From an uncultured Nitrososphaerota archaeon (lineage in GTDB: Archaea > Thermoproteota > Nitrososphaeria > Nitrososphaerales > Gagatemarchaeaceae): a DNA stretch of 64,000 nucleotides. The number at the start of each line of letters is the position of its first letter. The first letter of the stretch is position 1. Positions 790 through 64,000 of the stretch are shown here, in pieces. The stretch spans positions 1,824,001 to 1,888,000 of the forward strand of contig OY969807.1 in NCBI GenBank assembly GCA_963703285.1, given 5' to 3'. A program made the position numbers and the translations under genes. Under the pieces are notes generated by a model. It was not told the origin of the DNA, did not search any database, and worked only from the letters and a program-made list of their open reading frames with translations.

Positions 790-914
790 CCCCCGGTGCG
801 CACCGTTCACGAGATATAACCGAGCGCCCGCGGGAGAGGGAAGACTCACATCGGGTGATTACCTCAGGTGAGCCGTCCTTTTATCCCCAAGCTCCGTCCG
901 CTCGGGCAGTTAGA

Positions 915-1913
915 ATGACCAAGATGATCGAGGCGGAGAACCTGACGAAGGTGTACAAGGGAAAGGTCAAGGCCGTCGACCATATCTCCTTCACAGTCGA
1001 GGAGGGAGAGATCTTCGGGTTCCTGGGGCCGAACGGCGCAGGCAAGACCACGACCATCAAGATGCTCAACACCCTGGCGACCATCACCGAGGGCAGGGCC
1101 AGCGTCGCCGGGCACGACGTCAGCAGGGAGCAGGGGGCCACCAGGGACAGCATCGGCGTGGTGCCCCAGGAGCTGACCGCCGACGACGAGCTGAACGGAG
1201 AGGAGAACCTGATGCTCGCGGCGAGGCTTCATCACGTCGGGAGAGATGCGGCGCGCCTGAGGACCCAGGAGCTCCTCAAGCTCGTCGACCTCGACCAGGC
1301 GGCCCGGCGGAAGGTGAAGACCTACTCTGGCGGCATGAGGAGGCGCCTGCAGCTAGCGATGGGGCTCGTCCACATGCCGAAGGTCCTCTTCCTCGACGAG
1401 CCCACCCTCGGGCTCGACATACAGACGAGGAAGAAGATGTGGGACTACATCTCCAGGCTCAATCGCGAGCGCGGGCTCACGGTGTTCATGACGACCCACT
1501 ACCTCGAGGAGGCGGACTCCCTCTGCAACAGGATAGCGATCATCGACCAGGGTACGATCAAGGTGTCGGGCTCGCCGGCGGAGCTCAAGGAGAAGGTCGG
1601 GGGAGACATCCTCACCCTCGAGCTCAGCGAGAACGCCCCCGACCTGACCGAGTTCTTCAGGTCGGTCCCCGAGGTTATCGAGGTCATAAAGTCGGACCAG
1701 ACTTACCGGATCAAGCTTCCGAAGACGGAGAAGGCCCTCCCGGCGATCGTCGAGGGCGTGGTCAAGAGGGACGTCCAGATCATCGAGATATCGTTCACCA
1801 AGCCCACCCTCGACCAGGTGTTCCTGGAGGTCACGGGCAAGTCGATGCGGGACGAGGACGCGTCTGAGAGCGACTCCCTGCTTCAGAACGTGATGATGGA
1901 GAGGGCGAGGTAG
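915..1913 (+). CDS. ABC-2 (DrrA-like) exporter ATP-binding subunit
   Basis: GPNGAGKTT Walker A, YSGGMRRR signature, LFLDEPT Walker B. Confidence 0.95.
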   Translation: MTKMIEAENLTKVYKGKVKAVDHISFTVEEGEIFGFLGPNGAGKTTTIKMLNTLATITEGRASVAGHDVSREQGATRDSIGVVPQELTADDELNGEENLMLAARLHHVGRDAARLRTQELLKLVDLDQAARRKVKTYSGGMRRRLQLAMGLVHMPKVLFLDEPTLGLDIQTRKKMWDYISRLNRERGLTVFMTTHYLEEADSLCNRIAIIDQGTIKVSGSPAELKEKVGGDILTLELSENAPDLTEFFRSVPEVIEVIKSDQTYRIKLPKTEKALPAIVEGVVKRDVQIIEISFTKPTLDQVFLEVTGKSMRDEDASESDSLLQNVMMERAR

Positions 1914-1919
1914 ACCGCG

Positions 1920-2783
1920 ATGTTCGACGAGACACTAGCGCTCACGACCAGGGCGCTCAAGAAGTGGATCAGGAATCCCGCAGCCGTCCTGCCCGCGCTC
2001 TTCACCTCTCTCTTCTACCTCGTCCTGTTTGGGAACTCCTTCAACCCGACCAACCTCTTCACCTCCGGGCTGAGCAGCAGCGGAATCCCTCCCTCGGTGG
2101 TAGCTCAGATCAAGGCGACCATCCTCCAGCAGACCTTCGGGGGCGCCGCGACCTACATCACCTACCTGACCGCCGGCGTCATATGCCTCATCCTCGTCTT
2201 CAACATGGCCTTCGGCGGCATCGACCTCGTCCTAGACAGGCAGCTGGGCTACCTCAACACCCTCCTCACCTCCCCGATACCGAGGGCGGCGATCTACTTC
2301 TCGGGGGTTCTCCAGAACCTAGTGAAGGTCATGTTCATGGCCCTGCTGACCTTCCTCATAGCGCTGGTGATTCCAAACGGGCTCGAGCTGCAGTCCGGGT
2401 TTGGTCCCCTCAACTTCATCGGCATCTTCGCCGCCTTCGCGCTCCTGGGATTCGGCCTGTCGTGCGTCTTCACTGCCCTCGCGCTCTCAGTCAGGAGCAT
2501 CGACTCCCTGGTCGCGATAGTCAACTTCCTGACGCTGCCGCTGATATTCATGAGCAACGCCCTCTTCCCGTCAGAGACGTTCCCGAGCTGGCTCAAGGCG
2601 ATAGCGAGCGCGAACCCGATATCAACGACCGACGAGGCGGCGAGGCTGCTCATAGTGAACGGGAGCCTGACCAGCGCGCAGATCTCGACCTTCGCTGGCG
2701 ACATGCTCTATCTTGCGGTCGTCGCGGTGGGGCTCACCGTAGTCGGCTACCTCGCCGCGAGAAAGGCGCTGAGTGCCGAGTGA
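1920..2783 (+). CDS. ABC-2 type permease
   Basis: About six hydrophobic helices, PSWLKAIASANP motif, directly follows the ATPase. Confidence 0.9.
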   Translation: MFDETLALTTRALKKWIRNPAAVLPALFTSLFYLVLFGNSFNPTNLFTSGLSSSGIPPSVVAQIKATILQQTFGGAATYITYLTAGVICLILVFNMAFGGIDLVLDRQLGYLNTLLTSPIPRAAIYFSGVLQNLVKVMFMALLTFLIALVIPNGLELQSGFGPLNFIGIFAAFALLGFGLSCVFTALALSVRSIDSLVAIVNFLTLPLIFMSNALFPSETFPSWLKAIASANPISTTDEAARLLIVNGSLTSAQISTFAGDMLYLAVVAVGLTVVGYLAARKALSAE

Positions 2784-2880
2784 GCGCGCTCACGTCATGA
2801 ACCTTGCCGCGCTCGAAGCCGCCGTAGGCGGTCTGACCTCCGGGCATCGAATAAATAGACCGCGAGCAGCGAAATTGCCC

Positions 2881-3903
2881 GTGCCCCAGAAGAAGAAGAT
2901 TGTAGCGACAGACATGGTGGTCCCCGAGCCGATCAAGAGGAGGGTGGAGTCATCGGCCGGAGGAAGCTACTCCCTGCGCCACATCGACAGCCTAGACGAC
3001 ACGGTGAAGAACGACGTCGAGGTGCTGGTGATGCTTCGAAGCGCCAGCGTGACGAAAGCTCTCTTCCGGGAGATGCCTAACGTCAGGCTGGTCCAGTCGA
3101 TGTCGGCGGGGGTGGATTTCATCGACTTCACGGCCGTCCCCCCGGACGTCACCGTCTGCTCTAACGCCGGCGCCTTCAAGGACCCCATAGCCGAGCACGT
3201 CTTCGCCATGGTCCTATGCTTCGCGAAGAACCTGTCCCGCAACCACGAGCGGCTGCGCCGGGGGCTCTTCGAGAGCTCCGCCGACGGGCTGTTCCTGGGG
3301 AACAAGACCATCGGGGTAGTCGGCGCCGGGGGCATCGGCCAGTCCGTGGCGAGGGTCGCGAGGGGCTTCAACATGAGGACGGTGGGGATCAACACGACAG
3401 GTCGCCCCGTCGAGGGTTTTGACGCCGTGTGGAAGATGGACCGGCTCGACGACCTCCTAAGGCAGGCGGACGTCGTCGTGATTTCGCTCCCGCTGACCGT
3501 ACGCACGAGGAACCTCATCGACGCCGGGAGGCTCTCCGCGATGAAGGAGGACTGTATCCTCGTCAACGTCGCCCGCGGGGCGATAATCGCCCAGGACGCC
3601 CTCTACTCGCACCTCAAGTCCCACCCCAGCTTCAGGGCCGGCATCGACGTCTGGTGGAGGTACCCGAAGGAGGGGGAGAAGTTCTCCCTCGACTTCCCGT
3701 TCTTCGACCTTCCAAACTTCCTCGCGTCGCCACACAACGCGGACGGTGTCCCCGAGGCGCTCCCCCTCGGCCAGGAACACGCGTTCCGAAACGTGATCGC
3801 GTACCTCGACGGAGGCGCGCTCGAGAGGAAGGTCGACAGGGGCGACTACCTCGGCCTGCCACCGCGGACGAGCGCCAGGGCTTCCAAATTCCGGAGGGTA
3901 TGA
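2881..3903 (+). CDS. D-isomer-specific 2-hydroxyacid dehydrogenase
   Basis: SAGVD, GAGGIG Rossmann motif, VNVARG, SPHNA. GTG start at 2881 inferred. Confidence 0.9.
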   Translation: MPQKKKIVATDMVVPEPIKRRVESSAGGSYSLRHIDSLDDTVKNDVEVLVMLRSASVTKALFREMPNVRLVQSMSAGVDFIDFTAVPPDVTVCSNAGAFKDPIAEHVFAMVLCFAKNLSRNHERLRRGLFESSADGLFLGNKTIGVVGAGGIGQSVARVARGFNMRTVGINTTGRPVEGFDAVWKMDRLDDLLRQADVVVISLPLTVRTRNLIDAGRLSAMKEDCILVNVARGAIIAQDALYSHLKSHPSFRAGIDVWWRYPKEGEKFSLDFPFFDLPNFLASPHNADGVPEALPLGQEHAFRNVIAYLDGGALERKVDRGDYLGLPPRTSARASKFRRV

Positions 3904-54020: not shown

Positions 54021-55160
54021 ATGATCGTGGGCGTCCCGAAGGAAACTGCACAGGGTGAGAAACGGGTCTCGCTCGTCCCCGATGCGGTCCCCAAGCTCAC
54101 CGGGGCCTCGGTCCTCGTGGAGACCGGCGCAGGAGAATCCGCAGGCTTCCAGGACTCCGCATACGCCGAGAAGGGCGCGTCCATCGCCCCGGATGCGCAG
54201 ACCCTCTACGGACAGGCGGACGTCGTCATCAAGGTGACCCCTCCCTCGAAGGCCGAGGCGGCGATGCTGAAGGAAGGGTCGACCATGATTTCGTTCCTGT
54301 ATCCTCTCGCCAACCTCGACGCCGTCAGGGTTCTGAGCGCCCGCAGGGTGACCGCCTTCGCCATGGAGCTCATCCCCAGGATTAGCCGCGCACAGCCGAT
54401 GGACGCCCTCTCGTCCCAGTCCAACCTCGGCGGCTACAAGGCCGCTCTCCTCGCGGCAGAGACCCTCCCGAGAATCTTCCCGATGATGATGACGGCCGCC
54501 GGGACGCTCTCCCCCGCCAAGGTCTTCGTCGTGGGCGCTGGGGTGGCGGGGCTCCAGGCCATCGCGACGGCGCGCAGGCTCGGCGCCCTGGTGGAAGCCT
54601 ACGACGTGCGGCCCGTCGTCAAGGAGCAGATTGAGAGCCTCGGAGCGAGGTTCGTGCAGATGCCCGTCGAGGCAAAGGACGCCCAGGACGCCGGAGGCTA
54701 TGCGAAGGCGCAGACCGAAGAATTCTACGCCAAGCAGCAGAAGTTCCTCGCCGAACGCGCCCAGGCCTCCGACGTCGTCATAACCACGGCCCTCGTGCCC
54801 GGTCAGAAGGCACCGAAGCTGATCTCCGAGGAGGCTGTCAGGGGGATGCGCCCTGGCTCTGTGGTGGTCGACATGGCCGCGGAGCAGGGGGGAAACTGCG
54901 CCCTCACCGAGGCCGGAAAGACCGTCACCAGGTATGGCGTGACCATAATCGGCCCCCTGAACCTTCCTTCGACGATGGCCCCACAGGCCAGCCAGCTGTA
55001 TTCGCGGAACATCACGTCCTTCCTCCTGGCGATGATGAAGGAGGGCAGGGTGATCGTCGATCTGAAGGATGACGTGGTCAGGGGGTCCCTCGTGATGGAC
55101 CGGGGCTCGGTCGTGCACCCCGCGACGAAGGCTGCGATCGAGGGGGTCCCGCAGCGATGA
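54021..55160 (+). CDS. pntAA: NAD(P) transhydrogenase alpha subunit, part 1 (dI)
   Basis: PRISRAQ.MDALSSQ, GAGVAGL, GGYAK, TTALVPG, GGNC. Confidence 0.95.
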   Translation: MIVGVPKETAQGEKRVSLVPDAVPKLTGASVLVETGAGESAGFQDSAYAEKGASIAPDAQTLYGQADVVIKVTPPSKAEAAMLKEGSTMISFLYPLANLDAVRVLSARRVTAFAMELIPRISRAQPMDALSSQSNLGGYKAALLAAETLPRIFPMMMTAAGTLSPAKVFVVGAGVAGLQAIATARRLGALVEAYDVRPVVKEQIESLGARFVQMPVEAKDAQDAGGYAKAQTEEFYAKQQKFLAERAQASDVVITTALVPGQKAPKLISEEAVRGMRPGSVVVDMAAEQGGNCALTEAGKTVTRYGVTIIGPLNLPSTMAPQASQLYSRNITSFLLAMMKEGRVIVDLKDDVVRGSLVMDRGSVVHPATKAAIEGVPQR

Positions 55161-55456
55161 CGCTCGCCTCCACGGACCTGCAGGTCAATCTCATCATCTT
55201 CATCCTGGCGACCTTCCTGGGACTGGAGCTGGTCCGCCACGTCTCCCGTCTCCTCCACACGCCGCTCATGGCGCTCACCAACGCCATCTCCTCCGTCTCG
55301 ATAGTCGCCGCGCTGATAGTCCTCTCCGACCCCAAGAACCAGATGGTGCTGATTCTCGTGATCGTCGCCATCGCGCTCGTCTTCACCAACATCGTCAGCG
55401 GCTTCGGGATTACCGAGCGCATCCTCAGGCTCTTCAAGCAGAGGAAGACCAGATGA
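55157..55456 (+). CDS. pntAB: NAD(P) transhydrogenase alpha subunit, part 2
   Basis: LHTPLM.LTNAIS, NIVSGF.IT.R.L.LF. Confidence 0.95.
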   Translation: MTLASTDLQVNLIIFILATFLGLELVRHVSRLLHTPLMALTNAISSVSIVAALIVLSDPKNQMVLILVIVAIALVFTNIVSGFGITERILRLFKQRKTR

Positions 55457-56841
55457 ACGACGCCATCGTCGAGTACCTCTACGTCATAGCGGTCCTGTTC
55501 TTCGTGATCTCGCTCAAGTGGATGAGCGAGGTGAGGACCTCGCGGTACGGAAACTGGATAGCCGCCTCCGGGATGGCCGTCGCAATCGGGGGAACGCTCC
55601 TCGCCTATCAGGTCCAGAGGATAGACCTGCTGATAGTCGCGGTCGTCGTGGGCGTCATCATCGGGGCACCGATAGCCGTGAAGGTCCCCATGACGGCCGT
55701 CCCACAGCGGACCGCCGCGTCCCACGCCTTCGGCTCGCTGGCCGTCGCGCTGGTGGGAACGGCCGAGTACTACCAGAGGACGCCCGGCATCGACGTCTTC
55801 ACCCTGACCGTGCTGTGCGCCGAGATGATACTTGGGTACCTCACGTTCATGGGAAGCTGCATCGCCTTCGCGAAGCTCCAGGGGCTGATTCCCGGAAAAC
55901 CGTTCGTCTACGGCGGACGGAACTTCATCAGCCTCACGGTCCTCGGGGCCGCCGTCGCCCTCGCGATCTACCTCGTCGCCAACCCGGCCCAGTCCTTCGT
56001 CCTCCCCATCATGGCGGGCTTCGCAATCCTCTTCGGGTTCCTCCTCGTCATGGCGATAGGAGGGGCAGACATGCCCACGGTCATAGCGATCCTGAACTCC
56101 TACGCGGGGATGTCAGCGGCCGCGCTCGGCTTTGTGCTGAACAACCAGGTCCTCATCGTCGCGGGAGCGCTCGACGGATCGTCGGGCTTCATCCTCGCGA
56201 TGATAATGAGCAAGGCGATGAACCGCTCCTTCACCAACGTGCTCTTCGGCGGCGTGGGCGCGGCCGCCGTCTCGGCGCCTGGGGGGCCGTCGGTCGCCGG
56301 CGGACGCACTGCGCAAGCGTTCACGGTCGACGACGTCGCCACCATCCTGCAGGACGCGAGGTCTGTCGTCTTCGTCCCCGGCTACGGGATGGCCGTCGCC
56401 CAGGCCCAGCACGTCGTCAAGGAGGTCGCCGAGATCCTGCAGTCCCGCGGAGTCGACGTAAAGTATGGGATCCACCCGGTAGCCGGCAGGATGCCCGGTC
56501 ACATGAACGTCCTCCTGGCGGACGCCGACGTCTCCTACGACCAGCTGTGGGAGATGGACCGGATCAACCCGCTCTTCCCCGAGACCGACGTGGCCATCGT
56601 AGTGGGAGCGAACGACGTGACGAACCCCGCAGCGAGGACAAGGCCGGACTCGCCCCTCTACGGGATGCCGATAATGAACGTCGACAAGGCAAAGACCGTG
56701 GTGTTCATCAAGCGGTCCATGAACCCGGGATTCGCCGGGGTCGAGAACGAACTGTTCTACCTGCCGAACACGATGATGGTCTTCGGAGACGCGAAGAAGG
56801 TTCTATCCGACCTGGTCGCCTCCCTCAAGAGACAGGGCTAG
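55453..56841 (+). CDS. pntB: NAD(P) transhydrogenase beta subunit
   Basis: IGGADMP, LNSYAG, PGYGMAVAQAQH, HPVAGRMPGHMNVLLA, GANDVTNPAA. Confidence 0.97.
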   Translation: MNDAIVEYLYVIAVLFFVISLKWMSEVRTSRYGNWIAASGMAVAIGGTLLAYQVQRIDLLIVAVVVGVIIGAPIAVKVPMTAVPQRTAASHAFGSLAVALVGTAEYYQRTPGIDVFTLTVLCAEMILGYLTFMGSCIAFAKLQGLIPGKPFVYGGRNFISLTVLGAAVALAIYLVANPAQSFVLPIMAGFAILFGFLLVMAIGGADMPTVIAILNSYAGMSAAALGFVLNNQVLIVAGALDGSSGFILAMIMSKAMNRSFTNVLFGGVGAAAVSAPGGPSVAGGRTAQAFTVDDVATILQDARSVVFVPGYGMAVAQAQHVVKEVAEILQSRGVDVKYGIHPVAGRMPGHMNVLLADADVSYDQLWEMDRINPLFPETDVAIVVGANDVTNPAARTRPDSPLYGMPIMNVDKAKTVVFIKRSMNPGFAGVENELFYLPNTMMVFGDAKKVLSDLVASLKRQG

Positions 56842-56982
56842 AGTCTCATTGGCAAGCGAGCTTTCTGCTCGCCCTTGCGCGATAGGAGCCGGGTTCTCCA
56901 CGGGTTTCGCTTTTATGGTTTTGTAAAGGTTTATAAGTACCATCTTGTAAGCAAGAACTTCCTTTCGGATTTGCATTAGAAT

Positions 56983-57921
56983 ATGTCTCGAAACCCGAAC
57001 TTCTCGCGTCTGATGAAACTGGAGAAAGCTCTAGACAAATGTCCCAGATGCGCGCACAGCCCCATGATAATCGACTCGTCTGGGGGAGAGCTATTCTGCA
57101 GCAACTGCGGCTTCGTGCTCAAGGAGAAGATGGAGGAGGCGGGTCCCGAGTGGCGGTCCTTCTCCAACGAGGAGAAAGACGAGAAGAGCAGGGTCGGGCT
57201 CCCGACCTCGGTGGCCATATCAGACATGGGCCTTGCGACAGTCATCGGCGGTGAGAACAGGGACGCTTCGGGGAGGACGCTCTCGGGCTCGATGCGGTCG
57301 ACCGTAGAGAGGCTGAGGACGTGGGATCGGCGCAGCCAGGCACACGAGTCTGCCGACAGAAACCTCAGACAGGCGTTCAGCGAACTTCACAGATACGCCG
57401 ACAAGCTCACCGTCAACGAGGCGGTGGTCGAGAAGGCGGCCTACATTTACAGGAAGGCCTTCGAGCGCGGGCTGGTGAGGGGAAGGTCGATAACGGCAAT
57501 CACCGTCGCGTCTCTCTACGCGGCGTGCAGGGACATGGAGATACCTCGGACCCTGAAGGACATGGCGGCTGTCAGCAACATAAAGAAGAAGGACATCGCA
57601 CGATCCTACAGGCTTCTCTTCAGGGAGCTCGACATGCACATGCCTGTCGTTGACCCCGCGCGGTGCATCTCCAAGATTGCATCCAGGGCGGGCATGAAGG
57701 AGAAGACCCAGAGGAGGGCTCTCGAGATACTCACCATGGCAGGGCCGATGCGCGTCTCCGCAGGCAAGGACCCGATGGGTTTCGCCGCATCAGCGCTCTA
57801 CGTCGCATGCACACTGGAGAACGACGGCAAGACTCAGCGCGATATCGCCGAGGCCGCGGGCGTCACCGAGGTCACGATCAGGAACAGGTACAAGGGCCTG
57901 AGGGCCGCCCTGGGCTTCTAG
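56983..57921 (+). CDS. tfb: Transcription initiation factor B (paralogue 2)
   Basis: Zn ribbon, GPEWRSF, GVTEVTIRNRYK. Confidence 0.96.
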   Translation: MSRNPNFSRLMKLEKALDKCPRCAHSPMIIDSSGGELFCSNCGFVLKEKMEEAGPEWRSFSNEEKDEKSRVGLPTSVAISDMGLATVIGGENRDASGRTLSGSMRSTVERLRTWDRRSQAHESADRNLRQAFSELHRYADKLTVNEAVVEKAAYIYRKAFERGLVRGRSITAITVASLYAACRDMEIPRTLKDMAAVSNIKKKDIARSYRLLFRELDMHMPVVDPARCISKIASRAGMKEKTQRRALEILTMAGPMRVSAGKDPMGFAASALYVACTLENDGKTQRDIAEAAGVTEVTIRNRYKGLRAALGF

Positions 57922-58031
57922 GGTCATCCATCCGCCGCGCACCTCGAACAGCACTCGCTAAGGCTCGATCCCCGCTAATCGGCAGTATACGGCGCCAAGT
58001 CCGGGAATCGGCTAGAGCGCAACATATATTA

Positions 58032-58048
58032 AATGAATAATTCATTCA
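58032..58048. promoter_or_regulatory. Putative TetR operator AATGAA-TAA-TTCATT next to a TATA-like TATTAAA
   Basis: Inverted repeat just upstream of the TetR start. Confidence 0.55.
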
Positions 58049-58070
58049 CGTAATCTGTAGGGCCAAAGAT

Positions 58071-58206
58071 ATGCCACGCAAGAAGATGGACCAAGAGCTG
58101 AGGGACGAGAAGTCCGAGCTGATCCTCGACGCTGCTAGGAAGGTCTTCGCGAGGAAGGGCAGCGCGGCGACCATGGCCGAGGTGGCTGAGGAGGCGGGGG
58201 TCAGCC
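58071..58206 (+). pseudogene. TetR/AcrR regulator, 5' part (interrupted by the group II intron)
   Basis: ILDAARKVFARKG..ATMAEVAEEAGVS, first half of the HTH. Confidence 0.92.
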
Positions 58207-58306
58207 CTGAGGTAAGAGTGCGTTGCCACGCTAGAATTGCTTCAGGCAGGAAACACGCACCCTCCCTCCCAAACCCGGCGTGATACTTTCGCATCACCGG
58301 GCTTTC
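58207..58306 (-). ncRNA. Group II intron domains V and VI
   Basis: DV AGCCCGGTGATGC-GAAA-GTATCACGCCGGGTT. DVI GGGTGCGT/ACGCACTC stem with the branch A 7 nt from the end. Confidence 0.92.
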
Positions 58307-58360
58307 ACCCCTACGTCCTCCGTCCTCTTCTTGTGCATTGGATGGATGGGTTTCGGCTGC

Positions 58361-60112
58361 CTAGTTTCTAGGTAGCCTACTGTGGCATGTCGCGCACAAT
58401 GTCTGAAGATTTTCGACCCGGTGCACGACCTGCGGGTTGAAGACCATTCCTTTGGGGACAGGTTCCCTATGGTGCGCCTGAAGTCTTTCCCGACTGCCGC
58501 ACAGAGTACACCTCCATCCATCCCTCTCAAACGCCAGAAAGCGGTTGGAGAGATAGGTTTCATCGTACTCGGGCGCAATCGGGTGGATGTTGGGCACATC
58601 AACGATTGGGTCGTCGTTTTCCTCTGATACGCTGGTTGCGGTGTGGTTCTGGCGGATGTATGGATTGCTGATTGACCTGTATTTCCAAACAAGTCTGTGA
58701 TTCAGTGAGGTGTGCATGCTCTTGTTCGAGTTCATCCTAAAGAGTTCGGTCTTGACCGGCCCTCTTTGGATGACTACACTACCGTTTCTGAGCACGACGG
58801 AGAGGCATTTCTGGACGCTTATCTGGTATTTCCTACAATACCATTGATAGAACAGGCGCTGTGCCAGAAAGTCTCCCGTAGCGAATTGCTGATGTGAGTT
58901 GACGGTTCTGTAGTAGTTTGCCCATCCTCTCAAGACTCTGTTCATGGCTGCAATCTTCATCTGAGGGTCGTCGCTCTTCGCGCTCGGCCCTAGCATGGCT
59001 TGCAGTTTGTACTTGAGTCGGAGTAGGTTCTTTTGTGTTGGTCGTATCCTGACGCACATGCCGTGGTCTAGCCTTACTCGCTGGATGCGAAATCCGAGGA
59101 AATCGAATCCAGCTTCCAGATGCACGACACGCGTCTTTTCTGCGGACAGGCTCAGCCTCAGCTTCTCCGTGAAGAAGCTGCGTATGTTGTCCATGATTGC
59201 GGTGGCCTGCTCCTGAGTGCCTTTCACGCTCAGGATGAAGTCGTCCGCATACCTGAACAGCACGCAGCTTGCCTGCCCTTTCTCACGTCGCAGTCTTCTC
59301 TGCTTGTAGGTGAGTTTGCCCCAGCTCTCGTACCAATGCTGGTCAAACTCGTTGAGGTAGATGTTGGCTAGGAGTGGCGAAAGGACTCCGCCTTGCGGGG
59401 TTCCTTTCTTGGTCTGAGTTCGGATGCCCTTCTCGATGACGGGTGCCTTGAGGAATCGGCGGATCAGCCACAGGACTTTTGGGTCGGCTATCCTTCGTTC
59501 TATAGCTTCCATCAGTATCCAGTGGTCGATGTTGTCGAAGCACCCTTCGATGTCTCCCTCGATGACCCATTCGTACAGACGCTTGCTGTCCCCGTACTGA
59601 TACATGGGCAATACGCACTCCAGCGTGCTTCGCTCAGGTCGGAAGCCGTTGGAATTGGGCAGGAAGTCGGCCTCAAAGATTGGTTCGAGAACCATCTTCA
59701 AGACCATCTGAACTGTCCTATCCTTCAGCGTTGGAATGCCTATTGGTCGTTTCCCTCCGCTGGCCTTCGGAATGTACTTCCTCAGGACAGGCGAGGGGTG
59801 GTAGGTCTTGTGTTTCAGTTCTGTCCGCAGTTCCTCGACAAATCTGGCCCTAGCAGACGGTTCGTGCAGGTCTGCCCCGCACACTCCGTCTACGCCTGAG
59901 GTCTTCGCGCCAGTGTTGTCTAGGACTGCTTCCAGAGCCGATTTGAGCCACTCTCTTCTCCAGAGTAGCGGGTGTAGGTTGTGGAACCGTTTGTTCGGTT
60001 GTCTTGTTGCTGCTATGGCGAGCCCACTCTGGATATGGAGAATGACTCTGCCTTCGTCCTTGCGGACTACTGGATTGGGTGATTGCTCACCCAACTGATT
60101 GTTTGAGTCCAT
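58361..60112 (-). CDS. ltrA: Group II intron reverse transcriptase/maturase with HNH endonuclease
   Basis: RT0 GAKTSGVDG, RPIGIP, GFRP, DIEGCFDNI, GTPQGGVLSPLLANIYL, RYADD, FLGF, LRGWANYY, C-terminal CxxC..HH..N..LCxxCH. AGGAGGTGA ribosome-binding site before ATG 60112. Confidence 0.97.
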   Translation of the reverse strand: MDSNNQLGEQSPNPVVRKDEGRVILHIQSGLAIAATRQPNKRFHNLHPLLWRREWLKSALEAVLDNTGAKTSGVDGVCGADLHEPSARARFVEELRTELKHKTYHPSPVLRKYIPKASGGKRPIGIPTLKDRTVQMVLKMVLEPIFEADFLPNSNGFRPERSTLECVLPMYQYGDSKRLYEWVIEGDIEGCFDNIDHWILMEAIERRIADPKVLWLIRRFLKAPVIEKGIRTQTKKGTPQGGVLSPLLANIYLNEFDQHWYESWGKLTYKQRRLRREKGQASCVLFRYADDFILSVKGTQEQATAIMDNIRSFFTEKLRLSLSAEKTRVVHLEAGFDFLGFRIQRVRLDHGMCVRIRPTQKNLLRLKYKLQAMLGPSAKSDDPQMKIAAMNRVLRGWANYYRTVNSHQQFATGDFLAQRLFYQWYCRKYQISVQKCLSVVLRNGSVVIQRGPVKTELFRMNSNKSMHTSLNHRLVWKYRSISNPYIRQNHTATSVSEENDDPIVDVPNIHPIAPEYDETYLSNRFLAFERDGWRCTLCGSRERLQAHHREPVPKGMVFNPQVVHRVENLQTLCATCHSRLPRN

Positions 60113-60757
60113 TCTCTCACCTCCTGTTGTGTTTCGTGGACTGAATCCATCCTTCTGCACAGTTCAGACTTCGGATTTCAGGCTAGAGTCCTTCCCCACA
60201 GGTCGGTAATTGGCCGACGTTCAGGGTACTATGACTCCTCGGAGCCAACCCGGTCAAGTCGGACGCAGCCGTCCTATCCTCTCGCCCTTTATCGACGGGA
60301 GTCAGACCGGGTTGGGTCTCACGTTCTGTAAGGAGCACTTCTGCGGACGGATTTAGGCACCCACCAGTTACCGAGAGAGCTCCAGCTCGCTGGCCGGTTC
60401 TCGCCTGCCTGAAGGAGGGGATTTGCCACACTTCGTCCTTGAGTAAAGTGTGGTAGCTCTCTATACCATGCGCGCTTCGTCCTATCCTAGCGTCTTCGCA
60501 TGGCGCATGCGCTACCTGTTGTGGATTCCTTAACGTTGCCGTGTCCGTCCTAAGGTCGCCGTCTCGGGAACCTAGGCTGTTCCCTTATCGGCTGTCTATG
60601 TCTGGGGCTAGCCCCATGCTGGACTCTGCTCAGAGCCCAACAAGCCAGACGACTTTCACCTTCGGGAGTCCTGACCTTGCGGTCGAGGACGCCCAGCCTT
60701 ACCTACTGTAGTGTGGGATGGAGATGACTGAGCATGCTGGTGATGAGGTGTTCCAGC

Positions 60758-61324
60758 TTATGGTACTGCGCTCGCGCAGTACGAGGTAGACCCATACGGA
60801 ACGGATGTTTCATTGGAGCCAGTGACGGTTACGATGAGGGTATTGTTGGAGCTGTCGAGTTTCTGTGCTGTGGCGCAAAGAGTCAGGCCGCCGGTAACTA
60901 CTGATGTCATGGTAACGTTCTTGGCGAAGAAACCGCTACCAGTGTAGCTCCCACTGACATTCGTAGGATTGGTCTGGCCGAGGTTGTTGTATCCCAGATA
61001 CGTCAACTTCCACGGACCAGTATAGTTTACGGAAACGATGAAAGTGTAGTTGTAGGTCGCAAGACAATCACCGCCCGACTGATACCCCGAGCACGAGCTA
61101 GAGATCGTCGTCGAGGTCGTTTGCGACTGGGTGGTAAGAGTTTGACTGGTATTGACCGGCAGAGTAGTGGTCGATGATAAGTTGGAAGAAGTCGATGGAC
61201 TGGAAGAATGGGAAGTATTCGACTGTGACGTGAGTACAATGACTCCTGTCGCTCCGACCAGGATGACCACGACTGAAACAATGGCAATGATTGCTGTTCC
61301 AATTCCTCTTCTGGAAGTCTTCAT
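60758..61324 (-). CDS. Intron cargo: membrane-anchored Ser/Thr-rich surface protein with a class III (pilin-like) signal
   Basis: 188 aa: MKTSRRG/IGTAII.. hydrophobic helix, S/T linker, beta-rich domain with 4 Cys and several N-x-S/T sites. Confidence 0.85.
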   Translation of the reverse strand: MKTSRRGIGTAIIAIVSVVVILVGATGVIVLTSQSNTSHSSSPSTSSNLSSTTTLPVNTSQTLTTQSQTTSTTISSSCSGYQSGGDCLATYNYTFIVSVNYTGPWKLTYLGYNNLGQTNPTNVSGSYTGSGFFAKNVTMTSVVTGGLTLCATAQKLDSSNNTLIVTVTGSNETSVPYGSTSYCASAVP

Positions 61325-61520
61325 GTCGTGTCTGTGTTTGATGTGGTCGTGCGTCATTAATACCTTTGTCCGAATGGCGCTACTTTGCATGGAATAGTTG
61401 TGGTAGGTAGGGGAATATAGTCCTACGGTTTAGGACGGCTGTTCTGATGTTTGACTACAGTTCTTCGGGCATTGCTCCTTACAGCAGAGAGGTAGCAGGC
61501 TACCTCTTTTCGTGACGCGC

Positions 61521-62005
61521 AGGGGCTCGCTTACAGGTACTTCTCGAGCAAGGATGAGATTGTCGCAACCCTGGTCAGGAGGATGATCCAATCGAGAGGC
61601 AAGCTAACCTCGATGGTCCGGGAGATGCCGGGAACCCCAGGAGCGCGTCTCTTCAAGGTCGTATCGACGATGGTCGACAACAGGCGGGAGCGGCCTGAGT
61701 ACCACCAGATGATGTACCAGGGGATGGCCGACGAGAACTTGTCGCAGGAGCTGCGCGATGCCATAAGCGAGCAGAGGAGAGCCGTCAACGAGATAGTGCG
61801 GGGTCTCATCGTCGAGGGTCAGGCGACGGGTGAGGTCGCGGGGGACGACCCGGATCAGCTGGTCACGGCTGTTATGGCGTGTCTCGACGGCCTCTCGAGG
61901 AGGGTGTTGACGATGCCTCACGGCGAGTCCGGGGAGAAGTTGCCGCCCCCCGGGATAATCCTGAGGATGCTCAGGCCGGACGTGGGGAGGGTGAGCCTGG
62001 GTTGA
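61521..62005 (+). pseudogene. TetR/AcrR regulator, 3' part
   Basis: QGLAYRYFSSKDEI second half of the HTH, GQATGEV. Joined gene is 206 aa. Confidence 0.92.
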
Positions 62006-63051
62006 AGCTGAAGGGCGTCTGTTACGATGTCGGAGCTGTTATGGGCTTCAATTGGCGTCCAGTCTTCGACCCGAAGGTTGTACGCCGGGAGCTGGAGGTC
62101 ATCAAGAACGACCTGCATTGCAACGCGGTGAGCATCAGCGCCCTGGATGTTGGTCGGATTGTGACCGCCGCAACAGCCGCGCTCGAGGAGGGGCTCGAGG
62201 TCTGGCTCTCGCCTCTGCTGTGGGACAAGAGCGAGGATGAGACCGTCGCGTACTTGGCCAAGGCGGCCGGGCGGCTGGAGGCTCTCCGCAAGCGGTGGCC
62301 CGACAAGGTGGTGCTGAGCGTCGCCTCAGAGTCCACGCTGTTCATGCAGGGGATACTCGAGGGGAAGAACATCATCCAGCGGCTCGGAAACCCAAAGTTC
62401 AGAGCGAGAATCATGGCCGGCGAGCACAACGGGCCGCTCAACGCGTTCCTCGGCAAGGCCGTGGCTGCAGTCAGGAAGGAGTTCAAGGGCAAGCTGACCT
62501 ACCACTCCCTCATCTGGGAGAAGGTCGACTGGAGCCTCTTCGACTACGTCGGCGTGGACCACTACCGGGCCAAGGACATCGAAGACAAGTACGTCGAGAT
62601 GCTGAAGCCGCTCTTCGACAGCGGCAAGCCCGTGGTGGTCACGGAGTTCGGGTATGGGACCTACCAGAGCGACGGGAAGCTCGCCCAGGTCCTGCTGGGA
62701 GGAGGGGACGTCGACTTCAAGTCGCAGTTCTTCCACGCCCTACCGGTCGTGGGAAGGTTCGTCCGTCCCAAGGTGCGGGTCATCCACCCGCGCGACGAGG
62801 CCTGGCAGGCGCGCAAGGTCGTCGAGACCCTGGAGATTCTCGACGACGCGGGCGTGGACGGAGCCTTCGTGTCGCAGTTCGTGTCCCAGATCAATCCCTT
62901 CGATGAGGACCCGAGGTACGACCTGGACTTGGCAGGAAGCACCCTCGTCAAGAGCTTCGAAGGGGGAAGGAGGGGCACCACCTATCCAGATATGCCGTGG
63001 GAGCCGAAGGAGTCCTTCAGGGCCGTGGCCGACTATTACGCCACCCACTAG
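62002..63051 (+). CDS. Putative TIM-barrel glycoside-hydrolase-like protein
   Basis: KGVCYDVG, DLHCNAV, VASE, GVDHY, PVVVTEFG, WEPKESF. TTGA overlap with the tetR stop. Confidence 0.75.
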   Translation: MKLKGVCYDVGAVMGFNWRPVFDPKVVRRELEVIKNDLHCNAVSISALDVGRIVTAATAALEEGLEVWLSPLLWDKSEDETVAYLAKAAGRLEALRKRWPDKVVLSVASESTLFMQGILEGKNIIQRLGNPKFRARIMAGEHNGPLNAFLGKAVAAVRKEFKGKLTYHSLIWEKVDWSLFDYVGVDHYRAKDIEDKYVEMLKPLFDSGKPVVVTEFGYGTYQSDGKLAQVLLGGGDVDFKSQFFHALPVVGRFVRPKVRVIHPRDEAWQARKVVETLEILDDAGVDGAFVSQFVSQINPFDEDPRYDLDLAGSTLVKSFEGGRRGTTYPDMPWEPKESFRAVADYYATH

Positions 63052-63273
63052 CAATGGCGGCACAGGAAACGAGGCTCTCCATAAGCTGGAACAGGAAGCC
63101 ACTAGGACCGACAGCAATCTGGCAATAGCCCGCATCATTCAACGAGAGAGACGGCATCACCGGGGGTTTCAAGACGACGTTTCCTTGCAGTCCAGTCGTC
63201 CACTCCCCCCGCTTTGCTGGAGTGTGCAGCCTTTAGAGGGTAATCTGGCTAGCGGAACATTGTTCTGTACCCG

Positions 63274-63744
63274 TCAGTCACCGACCGGGGGGACGTATTC
63301 TTCCTCAGCACGGGACTTGTCCTGGAGATGCTCGAGCTCAGAATAGAAGTCCTTGGCGATTCGGAATGCCGCGTCGCTCTCGCGCATAAGGACCCGATGG
63401 AAGGTGGAGAACCTCTGATTGGGGGGCGTCACCTTCTCCGCGGGCGATAGCATCGAGAGGAACATGTCCCTCCTCTGCCTGTACAGGGCGATCTTCGCCG
63501 CGCACTCGTAATCGATTCGAGCCAGGATCTTGTCTCCAGAGGCTCTCGCCTCGTCGGCGGTCCTCTTGAGGTCCTCGGGCTCCCCCAGCTGCGCGACCTG
63601 CTCCCGGGGGTTGAGGAGGAGAAAGTACTCCATCGCGTCATGGAGGGCCATGCCGTTGGCAACCAACGCCTCCAGGGACGGGATTGGTTGTTGGTCCTGT
63701 GGGTCACCGGCCGCAATCTCACTCTCCCTCAGCTCTTCCGGCAT
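63274..63744 (-). CDS. Hypothetical protein
   Basis: Acidic helical ORF with genome-like codon usage. Confidence 0.55.
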   Translation of the reverse strand: MPEELRESEIAAGDPQDQQPIPSLEALVANGMALHDAMEYFLLLNPREQVAQLGEPEDLKRTADEARASGDKILARIDYECAAKIALYRQRRDMFLSMLSPAEKVTPPNQRFSTFHRVLMRESDAAFRIAKDFYSELEHLQDKSRAEEEYVPPVGD

Positions 63745-64000
63745 TCTTTCTCCGGAGGAAGGCAACATGCTGTCGAGAGCCGGCCCCTGCCCTTATCACC
63801 TACTGAACAATTCAACGAAGAAATGTGCCACAGCCGGTTCCGAACTGGGACGTCGCATGTGCATACGGTATTTGTCGAATGGCGAGGCAGATTCCGACCT
63901 TCGCCCGCTCGAATTTTCGATCCGAACGCCGCAGGAGCTAGAGAGAAGAGACCCGTCAAATCATTAATCACACATAACAGTCGACAGAAGTTGTCCTGAC

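What the first reader, a model, noticed from the sequence alone, without database searches (positions are those of the whole stretch)
58207..61520. Group II intron carrying a cargo surface-protein gene inside ribozyme domain I
Seen: element boundaries are fixed by the split TetR codon. Domain I is closed by TCACG/CGTGA (61511-61515 with 60319-60323) and a perfect 12-bp stem (61473-61484 with 60326-60337). Between these arms lies an intact 188-aa ORF, itself looped out by a TACCTAC/GTAGGTA stem (61403-61409 with 60700-60706). The IEP in domain IV is intact (RT, X, HNH). Known: group II introns normally encode only the IEP in DIV, and described extras are homing endonucleases, IS elements or nested introns. 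Inference: a retroelement acting as a vector for a passenger gene unrelated to mobility, placed where folding is preserved. This is the best candidate for an undescribed system here.
Basis: partly seen in the sequence, partly recalled or inferred. Interest (0 to 1): 0.92.

Follow-up and report, generated by a model that had tools for sequence, protein, structure and literature searches.

The report
Archaeal group II intron carrying passenger gene
A self-splicing, self-copying genetic element in a soil archaeon carries an extra gene for a cell-surface protein inside a loop of its own RNA, and related elements hold other genes at the same spot, which suggests that these elements move host genes around.

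Summary
Window 61520..58207 (minus strand) is a complete 3314-nt group II intron. It has a DV/DVI Rfam hit and an intact RT-maturase-HNH protein. It lies antisense in a TetR gene whose orthologues are uninterrupted at exactly this point.

A 741-nt insert with an intact 188-aa ORF sits in the terminal loop of the first hairpin after stem I(ii) of domain I. The ORF encodes a TM anchor, an S/T-rich stalk and an Ig-like beta-sandwich. Cargo-less relatives (about 83% identical) have a 5-bp stem capped by a GNRA tetraloop there.

A second, 100% identical copy lies at another site in the same one-contig genome, so the cargo moved with the intron. A third, degraded copy carries a paralogous cargo.

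In related genomes and metagenomes the same loop holds at least 8 unrelated ORF families. All have an N-terminal TM segment. Most lie behind a 19-nt motif that also precedes about 20 host surface-protein genes. Some relatives have a second slot in domain II.

I found no description of this in print. Splicing, expression and cargo function are untested. The scan had already noted the same architecture on copy B.

The parts
58207..61520 (-). Complete group II intron, 3314 nt. 5' end GCGCG at 61520; 3' end ..CUCAG at 58207.
   Evidence: Empty-site comparison with 4 orthologous TetR genes. A 100% identical 3314-nt copy with different flanks lies elsewhere in the genome.
58207..58306 (-). Domains V and VI. 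The AGC triad is in DV. The bulged A at 58213 is 7 nt from the 3' end.
   Evidence: Rfam RF00029, 57.1 bits (gathering 40), E 2e-09. The DVI pairing was read by eye.
58361..60112 (-). Intron-encoded protein (RT, X/maturase, HNH) in DIV. The likely start is the ATG at 60112, behind GGAGGUGA. The longest frame runs from a GTG at 60160.
   Evidence: Pfam RVT_1, GIIM and HNH. NCBIfam TIGR04416 above its cut-off. Nearest solved structures are 6me0 (5.6e-56) and LtrA (2.9e-52). The YADD motif is read.
61511..61515 (-). Stem I(i), 5' strand (UCACG). It pairs with 60319-60323.
60319..60323 (-). Stem I(i), 3' strand (CGUGA).
61473..61484 (-). Stem I(ii), 5' strand (CUGUAAGGAGCA). It pairs with 60326-60337.
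60326..60337 (-). Stem I(ii), 3' strand (UGCUCCUUACAG).
61454..61461 (-). 5' strand of the hairpin that holds the cargo (ACUGUAGU). This is the first hairpin after I(ii), here called Ia.
   Evidence: It aligns with the 5-bp GNRA-capped hairpin of cargo-less relatives. Complementarity is kept in 11 distinct cargo-bearing introns, mean 6.2 of 7 positions.
60705..60712 (-). 3' strand of the cargo-holding hairpin (ACUACAGU).
60713..61453 (-). 741-nt insert in the hairpin loop: leader, promoter-like motif, cargo ORF and a 45-nt tail.
   Evidence: Cargo-less relatives at about 83% nucleotide identity have about 4 nt here.
61356..61374 (-). 19-nt motif TTCGGACAAAGGTATTAAT, a putative BRE/TATA promoter. 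It ends 31 nt upstream of the cargo start codon.
   Evidence: The genome has 24 sites with up to 4 mismatches, against 0 for the reversed motif. Most lie 14-39 nt upstream of ORFs with hydrophobic N-termini. The motif is present in 10 of 14 distinct inserts. Its promoter function is inferred.
60758..61324 (-). Cargo ORF, 188 aa: TM helix, S/T-rich linker and a beta-sandwich domain of about 100 aa.
60506..60511 (-). EBS2 (CGCAUG).
   Evidence: It pairs 6 of 6 with positions -13..-8 of copy B's 5' exon. The same position covaries with the exon in at least 7 relatives.
58071..58206 (+). TetR exon 1 (host gene, opposite strand).
61521..62005 (+). TetR exon 2.

Best explanation
This is a recently mobile, IIB-like group II intron with an endonuclease domain, in an archaeon of the Gagatemarchaeum kind (Nitrososphaerota). 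Its RNA includes a passenger gene. The passenger sits at the tip of a peripheral DI hairpin, the first one after stem I(ii), which is a 5-bp stem with a GNRA tetraloop in cargo-less relatives.

Shown: the insert lies inside the intron RNA, so it is copied whenever the intron reverse-splices into DNA and is reverse-transcribed. Two identical 3314-nt copies at unrelated sites are the evidence.

Inferred: the passenger is a host-type gene for a membrane-anchored, probably glycosylated, Ig-like surface protein. It has its own BRE/TATA-like promoter and is probably read as a leaderless mRNA, independently of host-gene transcription. That would explain how it could be expressed from a copy that is antisense to TetR.

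Shown: across the lineage this loop, and in some members a loop in DII, works as a slot in which different small membrane or secreted-protein genes are found.

Not known: how the genes are exchanged. DNA recombination at the shared promoter and leader is my guess.
For: Intron identity:
- Rfam DV/DVI hit, 57 bits.
- IEP with RT, X and HNH; TIGR04416 at 352.9 bits.
- DI consensus fold from 8 cargo-less relatives: 142 pairs, 40 with compensatory changes.
- EBS2-IBS2 covariation.

Exact boundaries: 4 uninterrupted orthologous TetR genes.

Co-mobility: a second copy, 3314/3314 identical, lies at G000:C1:2039889-2043202, in sense inside an ArdC-N gene, with unrelated flanks.

Insert position:
- G001 and G014a relatives (IEP 76-78% identical, RNA about 83%) have GGCUGC-GNRA-GCAGCU where the window has 741 nt.
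- 7 of 8 aligned cargo-less introns have a GNRA loop there.
- Stem complementarity is kept in 11 distinct cargo-bearing introns, including compensatory variants such as UCUGC/GCAGA.

Lineage-wide slot:
- In the family's genomes, 6 of 13 intron 5' regions carry an insert.
- In metagenome contigs, 11 of 31 motif hits carry an insert, 17 have the short hairpin, and 3 are unrelated or unclear.
- The inserts hold 8 ORF families, and every complete ORF has an N-terminal hydrophobic segment.
- A cargo-bearing intron (L076) is 331/352 identical, downstream of the loop, to cargo-less L085.
- Cargo occurs together with a contiguous full-length IEP match in the own intron, G014b and L080.

Cargo is a real gene family:
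- 50 homologues, with 10 invariant columns in a 41-row alignment.
- pN is below pS in all 6 intron-borne pairs; dN/dS is 0.32-0.95.
- AF2 gives a confident beta-sandwich, with block pLDDT mostly 79-97 over residues 90-186.

Host-type origin: relatives of the cargo domain lie in 10 loci of related genomes with no IEP and no intron core within the flanks held. The motif precedes about 20 host genes.

Assembly: Logan contigs of X1, X2 and X3 bridge both cargo junctions with 0 differences.
Against: - No RNA data. No listed run is on record as RNA. Splicing, promoter use and translation are therefore unshown.
- The ends are GCGCG...AG, not GUGYG...AY. This is conserved in the lineage but is of unknown consequence.
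- The loop aligned to EBS1 of relatives does not visibly pair with the last 6 nt of the 5' exon at copy A (GCCCCU) or copy B (GUACUA). Both could be ectopic insertions, or I have EBS1 wrong.
- ViennaRNA does not predict the closing stem with the cargo present: 0 of 8 pairs, probability 0.009. It gives 8 of 8 only in a cargo-deleted construct made in the script.
- Copy A is antisense to its host gene.
- Some cargoes and IEPs are decayed: the G014b cargo is frameshifted, the G031 IEP is broken, and copy C lacks an IEP.
- No terminator-like T-run follows the cargo ORF (read).
- Two identical copies could in principle be kept identical by gene conversion.
- X1-X3 come from one study, and X1 may be the sample the genome was assembled from.
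Confidence: 0.8

Rival explanations
1. The insert is dead weight. A host gene fragment fell by chance into a tolerant loop of an intron that is now decaying. The ORFs have no role, and the cargo is neither selected nor regularly mobilised.
For: - Several lineage members are decayed: the G014b cargo is frameshifted, the G031 IEP is broken, and copy C, G011 and L075 show no IEP match.
- dN/dS reaches 0.95 in one pair.
- No function could be assigned: 0 Pfam families above cut-off for 9 other cargo and DII-insert ORFs, and fold matches only at Z 5.3-6.9.
Against: - Inserts occupy the same loop in 6 of 13 genomic and 11 of 31 metagenomic hits, with 8 ORF families, all in sense and all with N-terminal TM segments. 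Chance insertions would not be this uniform.
- Two identical full-length copies lie at different sites.
- pN is below pS in 6 of 6 pairs.
- The window ORF keeps all 10 invariant residues of its family.
Confidence: 0.1
2. The insert is a separate small mobile element (IS-like, MITE-like or a nested intron) that targets this hairpin, not cargo of the intron.
For: - The insert is bounded by an inverted repeat (ACTGTAGT/ACTACAGT).
- The same site is hit repeatedly.
- Nested group II introns are known in archaea (Zimmerly and Semper 2015, PMC4424553, passages seen).
Against: - The inverted repeat is the ribozyme's own stem and is present in cargo-less relatives.
- The insert has no transposase, no RT and no DV-like hit.
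- A DNA search of the genome with the whole intron found the insert only in the three intron copies.
- The ORFs resemble ordinary host surface-protein genes and share a host promoter motif.
Confidence: 0.05
3. The extra protein serves the intron itself, for example as a membrane-located addiction or exclusion factor that keeps the element in the population, rather than being a passenger of benefit to the host.
For: - Several cargoes are very small one- or two-TM proteins of 66-94 aa.
- DII inserts in G104 and in copy C encode antisense two-TM peptides.
- One DII cargo gives a weak PHROG match to a superinfection-exclusion family (E 0.0058). This is a lead only.
- Copy B lies in an ArdC-like gene, typical of mobile DNA.
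Against: - The window's cargo family occurs as free-standing genes in related genomes.
- Cargo-less introns with intact IEPs are common, so the protein is not needed for mobility.
- No toxin or defence family was matched. PADLOC was not searched.
Confidence: 0.05

Closest known systems
Bacterial and archaeal mobile group II introns of the IIB/CL kind with an En-containing IEP, as catalogued in Zimmerly and Semper 2015 (PMC4424553; outline and passages seen)
   Same: Six-domain ribozyme logic. DV/DVI. IEP with RT, X and HNH in DIV. EBS2-IBS2 pairing. Insertion with exact ends. Multiple copies per genome.
   Different: The ends are GCGCG...AG. There is a 741-nt insert with a promoter-like motif and a non-mobility gene in a DI hairpin. 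Relatives have a second slot in DII. None of the variant forms listed in that review's section headings is a cargo-bearing intron.
Targetrons carrying engineered cargo in domain IV
   Same: A group II intron delivers a foreign gene to new DNA sites as part of its RNA.
   Different: Targetrons are man-made, with cargo in DIV. A search listing's abstract (PMC8524655) says insertion efficiency drops with exogenous sequence. Here the cargo is natural, sits in DI or DII, and comes with its own promoter-like motif.
Twintrons and nested archaeal group II introns (Methanosarcina)
   Same: Extra DNA lies inside a group II intron in an archaeon.
   Different: The inner element there is another intron. 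Here the insert has no ribozyme or RT signature.
Group II introns with LAGLIDADG ORFs (fungal mitochondria)
   Same: An ORF other than the RT lies inside the ribozyme.
   Different: That ORF is a homing endonuclease, so it is a mobility function. Here the ORFs are membrane-anchored proteins with no nuclease or RT family match.
Transposons and integrons with passenger genes
   Same: A mobile element with exchangeable accessory genes in a fixed slot.
   Different: Those are DNA elements with transposase or integrase chemistry. Integron cassettes lack promoters. Here a retroelement ribozyme loop is the slot, and the promoter-like motif is the conserved part.

Membership tests
Group II intron | Domain V/VI catalytic hairpins | tested here: met
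   RF00029, 57.1 bits against a gathering score of 40, full model length 1-77.
Group II intron | Intron-encoded RT/maturase in DIV | tested here: met
   RVT_1, GIIM and HNH. TIGR04416 at 352.9 bits against a cut-off of 300.
Group II intron | Domain I architecture closed by long-range stems, supported by covariation | tested here: met
   RNAalifold on 8 relatives gives 142 pairs, 40 with compensatory changes. I(i) and I(ii) are in the MFE of the window's DI. The structure was derived from the same alignment on which it is counted.
Group II intron | Consensus ends 5' GUGYG ... AY 3' (consensus as quoted in PMC4424553) | tested here: not met
   The ends are GCGCG ... CAG. GCGCG is constant behind variable exons in every relative where the 5' end was located. 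This is a deviation within the lineage. It does not exclude membership, since altered ends are known.
Group II intron | EBS-IBS pairing with the 5' exon | tested here: inconclusive
   EBS2 pairs 6 of 6 with copy B's exon and covaries in relatives. No convincing EBS1-IBS1 pairing was found for copies A or B.
Group II intron | Retromobility with exact ends | tested here: met
   Two 3314-nt copies, 100% identical, with unrelated flanks. The empty site is present in 4 orthologues. The mechanism itself was not observed.
Group II intron | Self-splicing or IEP-assisted splicing | not testable with these tools
   No RNA run is listed. Needs a bench assay.
IIB / chloroplast-like class | IEP phylogenetic placement and class-specific RNA motifs | tested here: inconclusive
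   The only test was nearness to solved proteins: best is 6me0 at 5.6e-56, then LtrA and GsI-IIC. No reference set of classes was on hand.
Twintron | The inner element is itself a group II or III intron | tested here: not met
   No further intron-family hit in 55000-64000 at E up to 1. The cargo ORF has no RT family.
IS / MITE nested insertion | Transposase, or copies of the insert outside the host element | tested here: not met
   No transposase family. The insert was found only within the three intron copies in the genome.

The most novel reading that the evidence does not exclude
A lineage of archaeal group II introns acts as a natural retroelement gene vector. Two ribozyme loops, the first DI hairpin and DII, are cassette slots in which promoter-bearing genes for small surface or membrane proteins are swapped. 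The genes are then spread by retrohoming within and between genomes of Gagatemarchaeaceae-like archaea.
Probability: 0.55. Interest if true: 0.9.

Novelty: new variant of a known kind. Interest (0 to 1): 0.85.

Why it matters
Group II introns are usually described as carrying only what they need to move (review PMC4424553, sections seen). A natural lineage that carries exchangeable host-type genes in ribozyme loops would add retroelement-borne accessory genes to the ways in which archaea shuffle surface proteins. It would show that DI and DII tolerate inserts of about 0.4-0.75 kb without loss of mobility. That bears on ribozyme folding and on targetron design, where cargo in DIV lowers efficiency. 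It also gives a concrete system, with natural cargo-plus and cargo-minus relatives about 94% alike over the 350 nt compared, in which to test how cargo affects splicing and retrohoming.

Tried and rejected
Rejected.
- Thermodynamic folding of the 1210-nt DI with cargo. It does not recover the closing stem (0 of 8 pairs), so I rely on comparison instead. My first check was in the wrong register by one base for that stem and was redone.
- A 200-nt tree of ribozyme cores, meant to count gains and losses of cargo. It was unresolved: 1 of 21 inner branches was starred, and labels were no more clustered than shuffles. No count of gains is claimed.
- Leader-sequence comparison across cargo families. 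Identities of 0.66-0.74 among L055, L069, L070 and L076, against a shuffled mean of 0.47 and maximum of 0.66. Suggestive only.
- Function of the cargo. Pfam gave only a sub-threshold hit and NCBIfam likewise. PHROGs gave none for the window cargo. Foldseek against the PDB gave none at E up to 0.001. VIA wide search gave generic Ig/FN3-like sandwiches at Z up to 6.9. The ESM Atlas best score was 0.85, below its own noise line.
- RNA evidence. No RNA holder is listed.
- Intron-less TetR allele or cargo-less version of this intron in the laid runs. No such joint was listed. Contigs cannot show absence.
- Viral contigs. The 2 hits are the same unrelated A/T-rich sequence as the metagenome hit L087, with no intron 5' end or core.
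- Motif outside the family. It was found in 0 of 304 genomes of the 19 other families of the order that were searched. This is an exact-motif search, so diverged relatives would be missed.
- Literature. Searches found no paper describing a natural non-mobility gene inside a group II intron ribozyme domain. The library lacks most subscription journals. I did not ask for supplements. The archaeal RT tree in the supplement of PMC8632793, and the group II intron database, might list these introns.
- Neighbourhoods of the 50 cargo homologues. What share of them lies in introns is unknown, apart from the 19 loci. Those loci hold at most 1.5 kb of flank, and at least L008 and L013 start at a contig end.


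Full report
WHAT IS THERE. On the minus strand, window 61520 to 58207 is a 3314-nt group II intron. Rfam's group II model (DV/DVI) matches 58306-58207 at 57.1 bits, against a gathering score of 40. A 599-aa frame (58361..60160) has RVT_1, GIIM and HNH domains. It also passes NCBIfam's group II RT/maturase model at 352.9 bits, cut-off 300. Its likely start is the ATG at 60112, behind GGAGGUGA (read). The nearest solved proteins are the T.el4h maturase-RT (6me0, 5.6e-56) and LtrA.

The host gene is a TetR regulator on the plus strand, so the intron is antisense to it. Four orthologous TetR genes in the same genus (67-71% identical) read straight through ...GVSQGLAYRYF... at this point. This fixes the ends to the base, apart from one shared G. 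The ends are GCGCG...CUCAG, not GUGYG...AY. GCGCG follows varied exons in every relative where the 5' end was located, so this is a trait of the lineage.

THE INSERT. Between the 5' end and the IEP lie about 1400 nt, roughly 740 more than in relatives. IEPs 76-80% identical occur in five other genomes of the family. Their introns align with the window's at about 82-84% nucleotide identity over positions 1-58 and 813-3314. In G001 and G014a only about 17 nt join the two aligned blocks, including a four-base GNRA loop: GGCUGC-GGAA/GAAA-GCAGCU.

An RNAalifold consensus of eight natural cargo-less DI sequences gives stem I(i), a variable extra hairpin and stem I(ii). After these comes a short stem that encloses a 5-bp hairpin, capped by GNRA in 7 of 8 sequences. 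A second hairpin and the large Ic- and Id-like arms follow. In total, 40 of 142 pairs show compensatory changes.

The window's insert (60713-61453) sits in the loop of that first hairpin. I call it Ia by its position; the name is recalled nomenclature, not a test. Its flanks ACUGUAGU and ACUACAGU continue the stem. Its TACCTAC/GTAGGTA stem is not: GTAGGTA overlaps the conserved core.

IT MOVED WITH ITS CARGO. The genome is one contig of 2.25 Mb. It holds a second copy, identical at 3314 of 3314 bases, at 2039889-2043202. That copy lies in sense near the 3' end of a gene with an ArdC N-terminal domain, and its flanks are unrelated to the window's.

A third, 1300-nt element at about 838028-839320 has the 5' DI part, a paralogous cargo ORF (64/156 residues identical) and DV/DVI at 90% identity, but no IEP. 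Its 3' flank is homologous to copy B's 3' exon.

EBS2 (CGCAUG, 60511-60506) pairs 6 of 6 with copy B's exon positions -13 to -8. The same position covaries with the exon in at least seven relatives. The loop that serves as EBS1 in relatives shows no convincing match to the exons of copy A or B. Both may be ectopic sites, or my EBS1 assignment is wrong.

ASSEMBLY. Contigs from three runs of one study bridge both cargo-ribozyme junctions without a difference: X1 record 5 at 60547-61520, X2 records 13 and 16, and X3 records 20 and 22. At 61520 the contigs branch into the TetR flank and copy B's flank. In a peat run from another study, a related intron departs from the window exactly at the loop boundary, at 60708. 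X1 may be the source sample, so this is not fully independent.

A LINEAGE-WIDE SLOT. A 21-22-nt motif just 5' of the hairpin was used as a probe.
- Among 97 genomes of the family it hit 13 places in 9 genomes. Six carry an insert (three in this genome, plus G014b, G031 and G011) and seven have the short hairpin.
- None of 304 genomes of the order's other 19 families had the motif.
- Of 31 metagenome hits, 17 have the short hairpin, 11 carry inserts of 409 to more than 730 nt, and 3 are unrelated or unclear.

The inserts hold eight ORF families of 75-221 aa. All are in sense, and every complete ORF has an N-terminal hydrophobic segment. None of the nine other cargo or DII-insert ORFs matches a Pfam family above cut-off.

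The closing stem stays complementary, at a mean of 6.2 of 7 positions in 11 distinct cargo-bearing introns, with variants such as UCUGC/GCAGA. L076, which has cargo, is 331/352 identical downstream of the loop to cargo-less L085. Cargo is therefore gained or lost on a short time scale. A tree of the cores was too unresolved to count events.

Cargo occurs together with a contiguous full-length IEP match in this genome, in G014b and in L080. Decay also occurs: the G014b cargo is frameshifted and the G031 IEP is broken.

In G032 a 169-aa ORF of the same kind sits, in sense, inside DII. In G104 and in copy C the corresponding region holds an antisense two-TM ORF of 66-89 aa.

THE CARGO. The 188-aa protein has 50 homologues. 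All are unnamed, and those with a taxon label are from Nitrososphaerales. A 41-row alignment has 10 invariant columns, and three cysteines are nearly invariant. AlphaFold2 (mean pLDDT 70.9) gives a TM helix at residues 9-26, a disordered S/T-rich stretch, and a beta-sandwich over 90-186 with block pLDDT mostly 79-97. Structure searches give only generic Ig/FN3-like matches, with Z up to 6.9 and no Foldseek hit at E up to 0.001. 'Surface protein' is therefore a fair label and no more. Intron-borne pairs of four cargo families have pN below pS in 6 of 6 comparisons, with dN/dS 0.32-0.95.

Relatives of the cargo domain in ten loci of related genomes have no IEP and no intron core within the flanks held. 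The family therefore also exists as ordinary genes.

EXPRESSION (INFERRED). A 19-nt motif, TTCGGACAAAGGTATTAAT (61374-61356), ends 31 nt before the ATG at 61324. With up to 4 mismatches it occurs 24 times in the genome, against 0 for the reversed motif. It mostly lies 14-39 nt upstream of ORFs with hydrophobic N-termini, and the sequences further upstream are unrelated to one another. It is present in 10 of 14 distinct inserts. In nine of these an ORF of at least 50 aa starts 28-34 nt downstream; in the tenth (G014b) the ORF matching its family starts about 35 nt downstream, by my reading.

By its form and spacing I read it as a BRE/TATA promoter of a host gene class, giving a leaderless or near-leaderless mRNA. 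This is inference. A free-standing gene in G031 has the same motif and the same upstream hairpin-containing leader but no intron sequence. That supports capture of a host gene together with its upstream region.

COMPARISON AND NOVELTY. The review by Zimmerly and Semper (PMC4424553; outline and passages read) lists these variant forms: introns without En, with degenerate IEPs, with LAGLIDADG ORFs, without IEPs, with degenerate ribozymes, group III, trans-splicing, altered splice sites, alternative splicing, and twintrons. None carries a gene unrelated to mobility. Nine text searches found no such report, within the limits of that library. I file this as a new variant of a known kind. Another first-stage note of this scan (e1-6366630) had read the same nested pairings on copy B. 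My comparative stem agrees with it.

OPEN POINTS. Splicing, promoter use, the protein's role and the way cassettes are exchanged are all untested. The non-canonical ends and the missing EBS1 match are unexplained.

Noticed in passing
G000:C1, 24 sites, e.g. 1284071, 1286045, 1287559, 1651609, 1660130, 1672390, 1713231 (outside the window); in the window at 61356-61374: A 19-nt motif (host consensus near TTCGGACAAAACTATTAAT) lies 14-39 nt upstream of about 20 ORFs with hydrophobic N-termini. The reversed motif gives 0 hits. It looks like a dedicated promoter class for secreted or surface proteins in this archaeon.
   Followed up: partly
L038 785-1291 (G032); L058 1979-2176 minus strand (G104); L005 2296-2499 minus strand (copy C in this genome): A second insert site downstream of DI, inside the DII stem. 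G032 has a sense 169-aa ORF with a TM segment, an S/T stretch and a beta domain. G104 and copy C have antisense two-TM ORFs of 66-89 aa.
   Followed up: partly
window 61516-61520 and 58207-58209; all relatives: The intron ends are GCGCG...CAG instead of GUGYG...AY. They are constant across the lineage behind varied exons.
   Followed up: partly
window about 60455-60475 (loop aligned to EBS1 of relatives): The EBS1-equivalent loop (UUUACUCAAGGACGAA) shows no clear pairing with the 5' exon of copy A or copy B, although EBS2 matches copy B 6 of 6.
   Followed up: partly
L005 1397-2696 (G000:C1 about 838028-839320): A degraded 1300-nt relative of the intron. It has a paralogous cargo ORF and no IEP. 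Its 3' flank is homologous to copy B's ArdC-like exon, and its 5' flank is unrelated.
   Followed up: yes
L001 688-1521 and 5722-6120 (around copy B): Copy B interrupts, in sense, a gene with an ArdC N-terminal domain and an HExxH-like motif. By eye, a Doc/Fic-like ORF (FHEGNKRTA) lies about 1 kb downstream. This may be an integrated mobile element.
   Followed up: partly
G014:C8:1203652-1209702 (L039, L044): Two related introns lie within about 6 kb of each other. One has the GNRA hairpin. The other has a 386-nt insert whose small two-TM ORF is frameshifted relative to its relatives L084 and L068.
   Followed up: partly
L021 1908-2060 (G031:C30): A free-standing gene for a TM and S/T-rich protein has an upstream region 86% identical over 51 nt to the window insert's leader (hairpin GUCCUAAACCGUAGGAC followed by UAUAU), plus the promoter-like motif. 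No intron sequence is nearby.
   Followed up: partly
window 55028-55084: A weak, sub-threshold match to the C/D-box sRNA family sR53 (20.9 bits, E 0.23).
   Followed up: no
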